The position numbers are program-made. From Escherichia coli (lineage in GTDB: Bacteria; Pseudomonadota; Gammaproteobacteria; Enterobacterales; Enterobacteriaceae): 64,000 nucleotides of DNA. The stretch lies in the NCBI RefSeq assembly GCF_003019035.1, contig NZ_CP027447.1. One strand, 5' to 3'. Below, piece by piece: positions 42,001-45,000 of the stretch. Within the stretch, counting starts at the first letter, position 1, and each line of letters begins with the position of its first letter.

Positions 42001-45000
42001 GCTGTTACTCTTATTGCCCCCTTAACCCTTATGACCCTTTCCCTTTCTGGCGCAACCAGTTCATTCGGAAATGAGCCATGACAGTCTGCACCAGATTGTA
42101 TTTTCACCACCGGATAACGATCACAGAGTGCAAAAAATAACATGAAGCACCGAAGATTCTTAATTTATATGAAGCAGGTTATTATGCCAAAAATCGTCGC
42201 AGCATTTTTATAAAATAATGAGACATTCTGTGATTATACAATATATATCACAGGATGCAGAAAAATACAGAGAGAATTATTCAGATATAATTCTGCGTCA
42301 GAATTAATGTGATGCTCCGGTGAATTGAAATTTTAAAATTTCCCGACCCTGTAATGTCGATAAAAACGATTAAAACACCTGTTATCAATAGGTCGCGCTT
42401 CGAGTGATTACAGGGGTAATCACCATAATACCCCGGCAAACCTGCACTAATAAAGCAGGAAATTCTGGTCTGTTGATATTTATTCATCATTCAATAACAA
42501 TTTATTCACCATATTATTACGCAGTAACGACCGGTATCCGGTTGTTTTATTTCATCCGCTCCCTGCGCAAGACTGATCGCTGTCGTTACACAGTAACCGC
42601 ATTATTTTGCGCCATTCATGATATCCGTCATTCCTCCTTCCATCGGTATCCATACACCTGTTTCACCCAGCGTCCGCGACCGTCGCCGTGGCCCAGATCC
42701 GTCGCCGTCAGCGCCAGCGATTCTTTTTCGCTGAATCCCTGCGCCAGATAATGGCGGATCGCGTCCTGCGCCCACACATAACGCAGCGAGTGCGGGGAGT
42801 ATTCGCCCGTCAACCCAACTTTAGTCGCCTGTTTATGCCAGTGATTCATGGCTGCTTTAAGGTCGGGTTTGTCGATCAGCCTGCCATTGTGTCGATCCGC
42901 GACCAGTAAGGCCTTTTCAAGAGCGTTCCTGACTGCGCCAGTCTCCAGGACTGTTGTGTGGCGGGGACGCCCGCCTTTGGTGCCAAATACCTCTTTTAGC
43001 CGGGTTTCACCGCGCTCAATGGCTTTCAGCCACGTTTTCAGCGACTGTGAACTCTGTACCGCCTCCTGCGAACGCAGTCCCATCAGACGCGCGATCTCCA
43101 GCGCCGCAGCCAGCCCCGCATCCTCAGCGCGGGCTTTCTCCATCACCTGCTGGTAATGTTCCGGCGTGATGGCGCGGCGCGTGCCGTTGCGTGAAGCGCC
43201 CGACACCCCCAGTGCCTTATTGGTCAGGCGTGGATGCTCCACCACCTGCCTGCGTCCAGCCTGTCTCAGCACGGATCGCAGCGCTGCCATTTCGTTTTGC
43301 AGCGTTCGTAAACCAATATCCTGCTCCAGCCGCTCCTGAATGTAGCATTCGATATGGCGAACCCTGATCTGCTCCACCCGCTGGATCTGGATATTCAGCG
43401 CCCGTAAATGTTCACTGAACCGTTTTGTAATATGGATACGGTCATTCACCGTTTTGAAGCTGCCGCCTGCTTTCTTCGCCAGTGCTTTCATTTCACTGCT
43501 TAATTTACTCATGAATCCCCCTGCAACAAAAAACAAACAGTCTCCGGCGTGTGCTTTTTGGCTGCGCCAGAACGATACCTTCACGCCGGAGTAGCAGTTT
43601 GTTGAGGTTTAGGGAGTTTCAGGCTGTACGCGGTACAGACTGCCTGACGAAGCAGGGGTGTCTCCGGGGCGTCGTGCCCCCCTCGGTATCGATCTTTTTC
43701 TCCTTTACTCTGAACTGACAGCGGCCCCAAAGGGCATGTCAGACGGCGGAAATATGGCGCAGGCCGGAACTGGCGCGGCTTGCGGTGGTATGTTATGCGG
43801 CGTCACTTTGCTTTTTCGCTGACGCGATCAAAGTGACGCCTCGTCTGGTGCAGGGGGGTAAACATTGCGTTGCTGGTGCAGTATTCGAAAATTAACAGTC
43901 TGGTGCAGGTTAACGGTCACGCGGCAGCAAAGCCTGGTGGCAATGCAGGCCGCAGCCCGTCATGTAAAGGGCGCTGGAAATCAGCAGGGTATAAGTGGGC
44001 CGGAGAAATTCCGGCAAAGAAAAACCGTTCAGCCGGTGAAGGCCGTTGCCGTTAAGCGGTGACGATGGGGCTGTCCGGTGTGTAATTACTTCGCCTCAAA
44101 CGCTTTCGCGTTCCGGTATTGCGGAGGTCGTACCGGTAGCAAGGGCTGGTCGTCCTGATAAATCAGGGGCTTCTTGCAGACCATGAAGCCAAAGGGTGCC
44201 CGAAGGCATAGTGCAGGAGGGAGATTACACCGTTATTTCTGGCGCAGAAAGAAAAAATGTTTTTTGTGTTTAAAAGATTGTTTGCTTACTTCGTGACTGA
44301 AAAACTGCCGCGCTTCGCTTGTCTTCTCCCGGCTCTCCGCCAGCAGCAACGCTGGCAGAAAGCCGGGAGAGCCTGATTTTACCGTAACCGTGTTCCTGAC
44401 GCTTCTGCCATCAGGAGCGCCGCTCTCGCATAAGTCTTACAATGCGGCGGCCCTGATTATCGAAGTATCTGGACGGCCAGATAATTTCCGGTGCTGTTTC
44501 CAGCACATCCGCAATCAGTTTTTCGCCGCGCGGCCAGGAGCGGGTCAGCGCGTTTGCCAGCGTGGAAGACGCCAGTCCGGCCCTGCGTGAAACCTCAGCC
44601 AGCGACGCTCCCTTTTTTCTCAGACCCGCAATAATATCGGCAGGATGCCAGTCCGGTTGTATCATGATGTCACCCCGCTGTCAGCCTGCACGTCGTCAGC
44701 GGTACGTATCCAGCGCGGAGCGTTCAACTCGTCGGCAAAATACCAGACCAGTTCACACAGTAATCCGGTCAGCGTTTTTTCGGTTTCCGGCAGGAGTGAG
44801 CGCCCGTTCAGAACCTGCGTCAGTGCCAGGCAATAATCGCAGAGTGGTTCTGCATCGGGTGTAAAACCGGATGTGACATCAGGGAACGTGTCTACAGTAA
44901 AACGGTCGATCAGATGCGGTGGGATCGGCTCGTTCAGCGTGGGGCGCAGCAGCGCAAGACAGGTGTTAAGTCTGCCGCAGAGCGCCATTTTCAGTACCGG

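What the first reader, a model, noticed from the sequence alone, without database searches (positions are those of the whole stretch)
43585..44410. Structured non-coding stretch with three spaced TCTGGTGCAGG repeats between the recombinase-like and Ner-like genes
Seen: about 820 bp without a credible ORF; a 12-bp-stem hairpin at 43799-43840, then TCTGGTGCAGG-like repeats at 43844, 43872 and 43899 (27-28 bp spacing), and a nested GC-rich hairpin at 44320-44370 just downstream of the ner-like stop. Inference: regularly spaced repeats suggest a cooperative binding site or regulatory RNA tied to the flanking DNA-binding proteins.
Basis: seen in the sequence. Interest (0 to 1): 0.35.

Follow-up and report, generated by a model that had tools for sequence, protein, structure and literature searches.

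The report
Transfer-origin region of a mobilizable island
The flagged non-coding stretch is most likely the transfer origin and small-RNA leader that precede a mis-annotated "integrase", which is really a tyrosine-recombinase-type conjugative relaxase, so it is a new example of a recently recognised kind of island-mobilisation module.

Summary
There is a 12-bp-stem hairpin at 43799-43840, three exact CTGGTGCAG copies at 43845, 43873 and 43900, a GC-rich hairpin at 44325-44370, and no conserved ORF.

The context changes the meaning. The "recombinase-like" gene (42628-43512, minus strand) belongs to Pfam Integrase_1. That is the family of SGI1 MpsA and of the SGI-4 MOB_M relaxase (49% identity), and all catalytic residues are conserved. 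Bases 43569-43697 are the Rfam EFASI RNA (97 bits).

The layout is long leader, then GC-rich inverted repeats, then small RNA, then relaxase gene. This parallels the experimentally defined SGI1 mobilisation module (oriT, sgm-sRNA, mpsA).

- **Hairpin:** the sequence GCGTCACTT..AAGTGACGC is found upstream of all 24 homologous genes examined, on islands, plasmids and pSGI4. It is the best candidate for the oriT core.
- **Repeats:** only one 9-mer copy is conserved across genera. The second is Escherichia-specific. The third sits in a 27-nt insertion seen in three E. coli strains.
- **Motif distribution:** CTGGYGCAG is 17-fold enriched across the module. Its polarity is strict and flips across EFASI. 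It occurs only in lineages that lack STAXI.

No link to the Ner-like protein was found, and no inversion was detected. Verdict: a new member of a known kind, of moderate interest.

The parts
42628..43512 (-). Gene for a 294-aa MpsA-like / MOB_M-type tyrosine-recombinase-fold relaxase, annotated 'integrase domain-containing protein'.
   Evidence: Pfam Integrase_1 scores 201 bits and Phage_int_SAM_2 139 bits. The protein is 48.8% identical over 98% of its length to pSGI4 WP_033567157.1, a MOB_M seed protein. It is 28% identical over 194 aa to SGI1 MpsA, which also hits Integrase_1. R147, K179, H241, R244, H275 and Y287 are invariant across the family.
43542..43591 (-). 10-bp-stem hairpin (CUCCGGCGUG/CACGCCGGAG) that overlaps the EFASI 3' side. 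A U-rich tract (43523-43541) and the relaxase ribosome-binding site follow it. It looks like a terminator or processing site.
   Evidence: Inverted repeat I11 folds at -27.9 kcal/mol. There is a compensatory U-A to C-G change and a G-U wobble in other genera (alignment A2). The position parallels the 9-bp inverted repeat upstream of mpsA where the SGI1 primary RNA ends.
43562..43570 (-). CTGGCGCAG copy at the EFASI 3' edge. It is the first copy in the orientation of the gene.
   Evidence: It is conserved at -56 to -66 in 14 of 15 island loci.
43569..43697 (-). EFASI RNA (Rfam RF02957).
   Evidence: It scores 97.4 bits against a gathering score of 51.2, E about 1e-20, with a full-length match. 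EFASI lies upstream of the homologous gene in 23 of 24 homologous Integrase_1 loci scanned with Rfam, including the window, and was not found in L024.
43715..43742 (-). Small conserved hairpin (CTGACA..TGTCAG) between the oriT-like hairpin and EFASI.
   Evidence: Read from the sequence. It is conserved in alignment A2 and in the alifold of columns 820-925.
43754..43778 (+). Two degenerate 9-mer copies (ATGGCGCAG at 43754, CTGGCGCGG at 43770) in the same orientation as the three flagged repeats.
43799..43840 (.). Conserved inverted repeat or hairpin, GGCGTCACTTTG-N18-CAAAGTGACGCC. It is the candidate oriT core, meaning the relaxase recognition hairpin.
   Evidence: I6. The same lower stem lies 331-476 nt upstream of the gene in 20 loci, and also in L025, L027 and pSGI4. 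The apical stem differs in sequence between lineages but still pairs, and one U-A to G-C compensatory pair splits 6:6. The hairpin is unique in the 64-kb window.
43845..43908 (+). Three CTGGTGCAG repeats. 43845 is Escherichia-specific. 43873 lies in a 27-nt strain-lineage insertion. 43900 is conserved in all island lineages.
43900..43977 (-). Near-invariant block that forms an extended hairpin, with GNRA loops (GUAA or GCAA) in other genera. It ends in the universally conserved 9-mer.
   Evidence: Alignments A1 and A2. Alifold of columns 640-720.
44197..44208 (-). UGCC-UUCG-GGCA hairpin with a covarying stem. It resembles the STAXI inner hairpin but gives no STAXI model hit.
   Evidence: Alignment A2 columns 308-322. 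Alifold. STAXI consensus. No STAXI hit at E<=10.
44239..44247 (+). Distal CTGGCGCAG copy, next to the invariant GGTGTAATCTCCCTCC box. That box is a possible -10 or start of the leader (inference).
44325..44370 (.). GC-rich 20-bp-arm hairpin directly after the stop of the Ner-like gene. It looks like a terminator or attenuator.
   Evidence: I1. Compensatory changes in L002 and L014. The terminator scan did not call it, because there is no U-tract on the minus strand and only TGATTTT on the plus strand.
41919..42941 (-). Further CTGGYGCAG copies in the gene orientation. Two lie inside the ORF (42933, 42739, in two reading frames) and three lie downstream of it (42086, 41954, 41919).

Best explanation
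The stretch is the cis-acting part of a conjugative mobilisation module carried by a tRNA-Asn genomic island. The 'integrase domain' gene at 42628-43512 most likely encodes a tyrosine-recombinase-fold relaxase of the MpsA/MobK/TcpM (MOB_M) type.

As in SGI1, the roughly 800 nt upstream would hold three things:
1. A long, hairpin-rich primary transcript on the minus strand.
2. A GC-rich origin of transfer built from inverted repeats. Its best candidate core is the family-wide hairpin at 43799-43840.
3. A small structured RNA, EFASI (43569-43697), wedged between oriT and the relaxase gene, at the position of the SGI1 sgm-sRNA.

The CTGGTGCAG repeats are copies of a lineage-specific polar 9-mer, CTGGYGCAG. 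This motif decorates the whole module and replaces the STAXI repeats found in sister lineages. I infer that the copies are recognition or assembly sites for the relaxosome (the relaxase itself or an accessory factor) rather than an operator for the Ner-like protein. The third copy in this strain is a recent 27-nt duplication or unequal-crossover product.

**Shown here:** protein family membership, EFASI, conservation and covariation of the hairpins, and the statistics and phylogenetic distribution of the motif.

**Inferred:** oriT function, nicking, which factor binds the 9-mer, and the transcript boundaries.
For: **The gene is a MOB_M-type relaxase candidate**
- The gene family is Integrase_1 with Phage_int_SAM_2.
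- PF12835 is used as the 'INT_DTR_like' signature for MpsA-type proteins.
- SGI1 MpsA hits the same Pfam family and aligns with the window protein at E 3e-7.
- The window protein is 48.8% identical to pSGI4 WP_033567157.1, a seed for the MOB_M profile.
- The catalytic R, K, H-x-x-R, H and Y residues are invariant.
- MOB_M relaxases are reported to lie next to an integrase in 96% of cases and to be often annotated as integrases. Here a P4-type integrase sits 1.3 kb away.

**The layout parallels experimentally defined systems**
- In SGI1, oriT lies 304-428 nt upstream of mpsA, is GC-rich and is made of inverted repeats.
- In SGI1, a 650-700-nt primary RNA runs across oriT, and its 3' part, between oriT and mpsA, is the essential sgm-sRNA. 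That RNA ends at an inverted repeat just upstream of mpsA.
- The oriT of pIGRK, upstream of mobK, has three inverted repeats plus direct repeats, and MobK gives multiple band shifts.
- In the window, the hairpin lies 287-328 nt upstream of the gene, EFASI lies 57-185 nt upstream, and a terminal hairpin lies 30-79 nt upstream.

**Conservation**
- The hairpin is present in all 24 homologous loci, including plasmids with MPF_G or MPF_F systems and pSGI4.
- The module order is conserved in nine other species.
- UUCG and GNRA loops and G-U wobbles favour folding of the minus strand.

**The motif**
- It is 17-fold enriched: 2.8 per kb inside the module against 0.16 per kb outside.
- Polarity is 45:0 upstream and 96:2 downstream.
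- Copies lie inside the ORF in two reading frames.
- It is mutually exclusive with STAXI across lineages.
Against: - No transfer, nicking or binding experiment exists for this lineage, and the helper element is unknown.
- There is no sequence similarity to oriT of SGI1.
- The EFASI model does not hit the SGI1 sgm-sRNA region, so that parallel is positional and not homology.
- No MpsB-like gene was found downstream.
- No sigma-70-like promoter was called for the leader.
- Many E. coli copies of the module are decayed, with frameshifted relaxase or integrase genes. The module may therefore be a relic in many strains.
- The paper that localises the SGI-4 oriT (Neupane 2025) could not be read. I cannot say whether the mapped oriT coincides with the conserved hairpin.
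Confidence: 0.6

Rival explanations
1. The stretch acts purely at the RNA level. It would be a long cis-regulatory 5' leader of the recombinase-like gene. The upstream CUGCRCCAG copies would base-pair with the complementary CUGGYGCAG copies at the EFASI 3' end, in the mRNA and in the 3' region. That pairing could control processing, termination or translation, or a processed leader RNA could act as an antisense RNA with a repeated seed.
For: - The upstream and downstream motif sets are exact complements on one strand.
- An 18-nt, 83% complementary pair links 44237-44254 to 43555-43572.
- Tetraloops and G-U wobbles favour a minus-strand RNA.
- A C4 antisense RNA system lies in the same operon direction.
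Against: - Complementarity beyond the 9-nt core is not conserved in other genera (my reading of alignment A2).
- The copies inside the ORF and those far downstream, up to +1.9 kb, are hard to explain by a leader.
- The lower stem of the hairpin is conserved in sequence on both arms. That is typical of a protein-recognised DNA inverted repeat.
- This explanation is not exclusive of the oriT model.
Confidence: 0.2
2. The repeats are a cooperative operator array for the adjacent Ner/SfsB-like HTH_35 protein (44411-44665).
For: - A Ner-like gene lies directly upstream.
- That gene and the motif co-occur in the 16 island-lineage loci whose upstream flank is intact (L007 is truncated there), and both are absent from the STAXI-type plasmid lineages.
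- One copy (44239) lies next to a conserved -10-like box.
Against: - L025 has the motif with the same polarity but no adjacent Ner-like gene.
- No copy lies in the promoter region of the Ner-like operon, 45260-45640.
- Copies lie inside the ORF and 1-2 kb downstream of it.
- Only one copy at this site is conserved across genera.
- The 27-28 bp spacing is not helically phased.
Confidence: 0.1
3. The inverted 9-mers are recombination sites. In this reading the recombinase-like protein inverts or excises the 1.8-kb segment between 42086 and 43908, acting as a DNA switch or a mini-transposon.
For: - Extended inverted repeats, CTGCACCAGATTGTATTTTC and GAAAATTAACAGTCTGGTGCAG, flank the gene and EFASI.
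- The protein has a complete tyrosine-recombinase catalytic set.
Against: - A synthetic inverted junction finds no spanning match. None of the 491 E. coli genomes with partial hits covers 80% or more of it.
- The extended inverted repeat is specific to this strain and to L006.
- The sites are single 9-mers rather than paired half-sites around a 6-8 bp spacer.
- The module order is fixed in all 9 other species.
Confidence: 0.04

Closest known systems
mobSGI1 module of Salmonella Genomic Island 1 (oriT_SGI1, sgm-sRNA, mpsA, mpsB; Kiss 2019 PMC6414798; Nagy 2021 PMC9299015)
   Same: - The relaxase belongs to the same Pfam family (Integrase_1) and has the same catalytic residues.
- The order is the same: long primary-transcript region, then GC-rich inverted-repeat region about 300-430 nt upstream of the gene, then small RNA, then a short inverted repeat, then the relaxase gene.
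- In both cases the element is an integrative island with its own separate integrase.
   Different: - The proteins share only 28% identity.
- There is no sequence similarity between the oriT regions.
- The EFASI model does not match the SGI1 small-RNA region.
- No mpsB-like gene was found.
- SGI1 has neither the 9-mer nor the GCGTCACTT hairpin.
- Function here is untested.
SGI-4 ICE (pSGI4) and related MPF_G/MPF_F plasmids carrying a MOB_M relaxase (bioRxiv 10.64898/2026.01.13.699239)
   Same: - The relaxases are 41-50% identical to the window protein.
- They have the same GTCACTT..AAGTGAC hairpin and EFASI upstream of the gene.
   Different: - Those lineages carry STAXI upstream, and four of the six (L020, L023, L026, L027) carry a second copy downstream of the gene.
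- They have no CTGGYGCAG motif. The window lineage has the 9-mer and no STAXI.
- Those elements carry their own mating-pair genes, whereas the window island shows none nearby.
EFASI (RF02957) and STAXI (RF01728) RNA motifs (Weinberg 2010 PMC2864571; Rfam)
   Same: - 43569-43697 is a full-length EFASI.
- The Rfam description, 'downstream of STAXI, upstream of integrase genes', fits the family-wide layout found here.
   Different: - There is no STAXI in this window.
- The flagged hairpin and repeats lie between the usual STAXI position and EFASI, and they belong to neither model.
oriT of pIGRK (MobK) and of pCW3 (TcpM)
   Same: - The oriT lies in the intergenic region directly upstream of a tyrosine-recombinase-like relaxase gene.
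- It combines several inverted repeats with direct repeats and short reiterated motifs, and shows multiple protein-DNA complexes.
   Different: - The proteins are unrelated in sequence at this level. MobK lacks the N-terminal domain.
- No small RNA is known there.
- No polar motif that extends through the gene is known there.

Membership tests
EFASI RNA (Rfam RF02957) | Covariance-model score above the curated gathering score. | tested here: met
   43569-43697 (minus strand) scores 97.4 bits against 51.2, over model positions 1-133. This covers only the left 113 nt of the flagged interval.
STAXI RNA (Rfam RF01728) | Tandem pseudoknot or hairpin units that match the covariance model. | tested here: not met
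   No hit at E<=10 in 43500-44420, at E<=1 in 41000-46000, or at the gathering score in the whole window. The same model finds STAXI at 70-111 bits in sister loci.
MOB_M / MpsA-type mobilisation module | Adjacent gene for a tyrosine-recombinase-fold relaxase of the MpsA/MobK/TcpM family. | tested here: met
   Integrase_1 scores 201 bits. MpsA hits the same family. The protein is 48.8% identical to the MOB_M seed WP_033567157.1. The catalytic residues are invariant. The CONJscan MOB_M profile itself was not available.
MOB_M / MpsA-type mobilisation module | oriT with inverted repeats in the intergenic region upstream of the relaxase gene. | tested here: inconclusive
   A family-wide hairpin lies 287-328 nt upstream, with further covarying hairpins. 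The position matches SGI1. There is no sequence similarity to any validated oriT.
MOB_M / MpsA-type mobilisation module | Site-specific nicking and helper-dependent conjugative transfer. | not testable with these tools
   This needs mating assays and in-vitro nicking.
MOB_M / MpsA-type mobilisation module | Small accessory gene (mpsB-like) directly after the relaxase gene. | tested here: not met
   No conserved small ORF follows the gene. The 139-aa frame seen in other genera is antisense to the P4-type integrase gene. There is no tblastn match to MpsB. This feature is defined only for SGI1 relatives.
sgm-sRNA of SGI1 | Homologous RNA between oriT and the relaxase gene. | tested here: not met
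   EFASI occupies the same position, but the EFASI model gives no hit on the SGI1 mob region at E<=10. The relation is an analogy, not membership.
Invertible DNA switch (fim-type, shufflon-type) | Both orientations of the segment between the inverted repeats exist in populations or genomes. | tested here: not met
   None of the 491 E. coli genomes with partial hits has a match spanning the hypothetical inverted junction.
Ner-type operator array | The motif co-occurs with the regulator gene and lies at its own promoter. | tested here: inconclusive
   Co-occurrence holds in the 16 island-lineage loci whose upstream flank is intact, but it fails in L025. There is no motif at 45260-45640. Binding was not testable.
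Intrinsic terminator (44325-44370) | GC-rich stem followed by a U-tract on the transcribed strand. | tested here: inconclusive
   The stem is strong and covaries. There is no U-tract on the minus strand, only UGAUUUU on the plus strand, and the scan did not call it.

The most novel reading that the evidence does not exclude
CTGGYGCAG may be a directional DNA signal, analogous to KOPS around dif or to the 8-bp TRS/clt repeats read by Streptomyces TraB.
- It is a polar 9-mer packed at about 3 per kb over roughly 3.4 kb.
- It is written even into the relaxase ORF, in two reading frames.
- It reverses orientation across EFASI.
- It substitutes for the STAXI repeats of sister lineages.

Such a signal could orient or load the relaxosome, the coupling protein or a helicase onto the transfer origin. 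By implication, the orphan EFASI and STAXI motifs would be functional parts of tyrosine-recombinase-type relaxosomes. EFASI would be the counterpart of the essential sgm-sRNA, and STAXI or the 9-mer arrays would be its flanking assembly elements.
Probability: 0.15. Interest if true: 0.75.

Novelty: new member of a known kind. Interest (0 to 1): 0.45.

Why it matters
Tyrosine-recombinase-type (MOB_M) relaxases were recognised only recently as very common on chromosomes, and their origins of transfer are barely characterised.

This locus, with its 23 homologues, gives a concrete and conserved anatomy for one large enterobacterial branch: flanking repeats (STAXI or a polar 9-mer), then an invariant hairpin, then EFASI, then the relaxase gene.

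- It proposes a function for two orphan Rfam motifs, STAXI (described in 2010) and EFASI, as parts of a conjugative mobilisation module.
- It points to simple experiments to test that: deleting EFASI with complementation in trans, mutating the hairpin, and mutating the 9-mer.
- It suggests that tRNA-Asn islands of E. coli that carry Rhs and adhesin cargo may be mobilisable, although they are annotated as having only 'integrases'.

Tried and rejected
1. **Coding potential.** Open frames in the stretch are not conserved and shift frame between loci, and the PGAP 59-aa ORF has no family hit. Rejected.
2. **STAXI identity of the three repeats.** No model hit was found. Rejected as membership, although the repeats occupy the niche that STAXI fills elsewhere.
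3. **DNA inversion between the inverted 9-mers.** A synthetic junction found nothing in 5,426 E. coli genomes. Rejected.
4. **Arm-type sites for the P4-type integrase.** The copies lie 1.8-4.4 kb from the tRNA junction, which is too far for att arms (knowledge-based). Rejected.
5. **MpsB-like gene downstream.** The candidate ORF turned out to be antisense to the integrase gene.
6. **Homology of EFASI to the SGI1 sgm-sRNA and of the region to oriT_SGI1.** None was detected.
7. **TAI-island fragments.** L008 and L009 share only 43946-44121 and lack the hairpin, so they were uninformative.
8. **C4 RNA or EFASI loops as pairing partners of the 9-mer.** No complementarity was seen by eye.
9. **Chi-like activity.** GCTGGTGC at 43872 matches Chi at 7 of 8 positions, but the CTGGCGCAG variant lacks the Chi core. 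Not pursued.
10. **A literature search on 'STAXI' alone.** It returned psychology papers.
11. **The paper on the SGI-4 oriT.** It is not held in the library.
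Full report
**1. The observation**

The window matches E. coli SCU-301 at 100% identity. The flagged stretch lies in an island inserted at a tRNA-Asn gene next to mtfA.

- A perfect 12-bp inverted repeat lies at 43799-43810 and 43829-43840.
- Three exact CTGGTGCAG copies lie at 43845, 43873 and 43900.
- A 20-nt-arm GC-rich inverted repeat lies at 44325-44370.

CTGGYGCAG occurs 14 times in the window, against 0.93 expected from shuffles. Ten of the copies fall within 41919-44247.

No frame in the stretch is conserved among homologues. The one PGAP 'hypothetical protein' has no family hit.

**2. What the neighbours are**

The following lie on the minus strand, listed in order of decreasing coordinate.
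- isrK/c4-a1b1 (45284-45361).
- C4 antisense RNA (45177-45264).
- A 153-aa ORF.
- A Ner/SfsB-like HTH_35 gene (44411-44665).
- The flagged stretch.
- A 294-aa 'integrase domain' gene (42628-43512).

An AT-rich repeat region, a P4-type integrase and the tRNA follow. The leftmost 113 nt of the flagged interval belong to a full-length EFASI RNA (43569-43697, 97 bits).

**3. The gene is most likely a relaxase**

- It carries Pfam Integrase_1 (201 bits) and Phage_int_SAM_2.
- PF12835 is the signature used for MpsA-type 'INT_DTR_like' proteins.
- I recovered an SGI1 fragment (L019) through its published oriT sequence. Its MpsA hits Integrase_1 and aligns with the window protein at 28% identity over 194 aa (E 3e-7).
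- The window protein is 48.8% identical over 98% of its length to WP_033567157.1 of pSGI4. A 2026 preprint uses that protein as a seed for the MOB_M relaxase profile.
- The same preprint reports that such relaxases are the commonest on chromosomes, lie next to an integrase in 96% of cases, and are often annotated as integrases.
- The catalytic residues R147, K179, H241, R244, H275 and Y287 are invariant from the window protein to MpsA.

**4. The parallel with characterised systems**

In SGI1, the 125-bp GC-rich oriT is made of three inverted repeats and lies 304-428 nt upstream of mpsA. A 650-700-nt primary RNA runs across oriT towards mpsA. The 3' part of that RNA, between oriT and mpsA, is the essential sgm-sRNA, and the transcript ends at a short inverted repeat just before mpsA.

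In pIGRK, the oriT upstream of mobK combines three inverted repeats, direct repeats and short reiterated motifs. MobK forms several complexes on it.

In the window, distances upstream of the start codon are as follows.

| Feature | Distance upstream (nt) |
|---|---|
| Terminal hairpin plus U-tract | 30-79 |
| EFASI | 57-185 |
| Flagged hairpin | 287-328 |
| 9-mer repeats | 333-396 |
| Near-invariant block | up to 465 |

The region is 55-59% GC, whereas the DNA on the other side of the gene is 31-37% GC.

**5. Comparative evidence**

A protein-based scan returned nine further species: E. whittamii, E. albertii, Serratia, Klebsiella indica, Cedecea, Pseudocitrobacter, S. arizonae, Erwinia and an unnamed enterobacterium. 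All nine have the same order: isrK, C4, ORF, Ner-like gene, about 900 nt of non-coding DNA, EFASI, the gene, the P4-type integrase and the tRNA.

The whole non-coding stretch aligns across these species.
- On the minus strand it contains a UUCG-capped hairpin, a GAAA-capped hairpin, and a hairpin capped by GUAA or GCAA in other genera.
- It shows compensatory changes and G-U wobbles, which point to folding of the minus strand.
- The flagged hairpin is the most widely conserved element. Its lower stem, GCGTCACTT/AAGTGACGC, occurs 331-476 nt upstream of the gene in 20 loci, and also in L025, L027 and pSGI4.
- The apical stem changes sequence between lineages but still pairs.

**6. The repeats**

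- Only the copy at 43900 is conserved in all island lineages. It sits at the edge of the invariant block.
- The copy at 43845 is specific to Escherichia.
- The copy at 43873 lies in a 27-nt insertion found only in SCU-301 and two MFDS strains. The spacer of that insertion resembles the allele of another island type (L006), which suggests unequal exchange between alleles.

The motif as such is nevertheless clearly selected.
- Over 15 island loci its density is 2.8 per kb between -1000 and +2400, against 0.16 per kb outside.
- Forty-five of 45 copies upstream of -300 have one orientation, and 96 of 98 downstream have the other.
- Copies turn over between lineages at non-homologous positions.
- Copies occur inside the ORF in two reading frames, at codons that are unusually invariant.
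- Two degenerate copies at 43754 and 43770 show that the polarity switch lies across EFASI rather than at the hairpin. GC skew flips at the same place.

**7. Relation to STAXI**

Plasmid and ICE lineages with 41-50% identical relaxases include pSGI4. They all carry STAXI 640-900 nt upstream of the gene, and four of the six (L020, L023, L026, L027) carry a second STAXI just downstream. They also carry the same hairpin and EFASI, but have no 9-mer.

Lineages with the 9-mer (the window lineage, L006 and L025) have no STAXI. The two kinds of repeat therefore occupy the same niches and are mutually exclusive. STAXI copies, however, share one orientation, whereas the 9-mers flip.

**8. Alternatives tested**

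- **Ner-like operator.** L025 has the motif without an adjacent Ner-like gene, and there is no copy at the Ner-operon promoter.
- **Invertible segment.** No inverted junction was found in any E. coli genome.
- **RNA-RNA pairing between complementary copies.** This remains possible but is not supported beyond the 9-nt core.
- **Homology of EFASI to the sgm-sRNA or of the region to oriT_SGI1.** None was detected.
- **mpsB-like gene.** None was found.

**9. Verdict**

The finding is real and functional. It is best read as the oriT-plus-small-RNA leader of a MOB_M-type mobilisation module. The hairpin is the likely oriT core, and the repeats are a lineage-specific polar motif of unknown binder. 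It is a new member of a recently recognised kind.

Two points make it more than routine. It links the orphan EFASI and STAXI motifs to these relaxases, and the strict polarity of the 9-mer remains unexplained.

Noticed in passing
window 45177-45361 (minus strand): A C4 antisense RNA (69 bits) is preceded by isrK-like and c4-a1b1 target elements, at the head of the operon that contains the 153-aa ORF and the Ner-like gene. This P1/P7-type antisense immunity cassette is conserved in the same position in all nine other species, and it points towards the mobilisation module.
   Followed up: partly
window 41313-42627: An AT-rich (31-37% GC) non-coding region lies downstream of the relaxase-like gene. 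It has two 131-nt direct repeats 228 nt apart (41518-41648 and 41746-41876) and long palindromes (41553-41616; a perfect 18+18 nt one at 41795-41830). It occupies the place where sister lineages carry a second STAXI and where pIGRK has a single-strand initiation site.
   Followed up: no
window 43523-43591 (minus strand): The 10-bp hairpin encloses the 3' strand of the EFASI closing stem and is followed by a U-rich tract and the ribosome-binding site. EFASI folding and this terminator-like hairpin are therefore topologically entangled, which suggests an attenuator or an RNA 3'-end signal. One compensatory change and one G-U wobble are seen in other genera.
   Followed up: partly
L003 3596-3895, and E. 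coli O145 strains (hits H10-H20): Some strains carry a HigA-family antitoxin gene of about 330 bp inserted between the leader (near window 44250) and the GC-rich hairpin. This spot therefore tolerates cargo insertion.
   Followed up: no
L008 3001-3174 and L009 3001-3120 (E. coli islands with tellurite-resistance and iroN remnants): A 120-176-bp piece homologous to window 43946-44121 (79% identity) occurs alone, without the hairpin, EFASI or relaxase gene, next to IS elements. It may relate to the 'oriT-only' TAI islands mentioned in the 2026 preprint, or it may simply be a remnant.
   Followed up: partly
L002, L004, L017, L018 and others: Many copies of the module are decayed. The relaxase-like gene is frameshifted or truncated, and the P4-type integrase carries internal stops. 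The window strain has both genes intact.
   Followed up: no
L013 4239-4570 (equivalent to window about 43960-44210): Three similar hairpin units, UGCUG-loop-CAGCG followed by CC(U/C)UUU, recur on the gene strand in the non-Escherichia lineages. The scan called them terminator-like. The arrangement is a tandem-hairpin one reminiscent of STAXI, and also of the terminator-like element that limits the SGI1 primary transcript.
   Followed up: no
window 34225-34276 and 21523-21715: DicF RNA (77 bits) and STnc100 (63 bits) indicate prophage-derived DNA elsewhere in the window.
   Followed up: no
window 43872-43879: The strain-specific middle repeat reads GCTGGTGC, a 7-of-8 match to Chi (GCTGGTGG). 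Chi-containing 9-mers are among the commonest in the window. This is probably coincidental.
   Followed up: no
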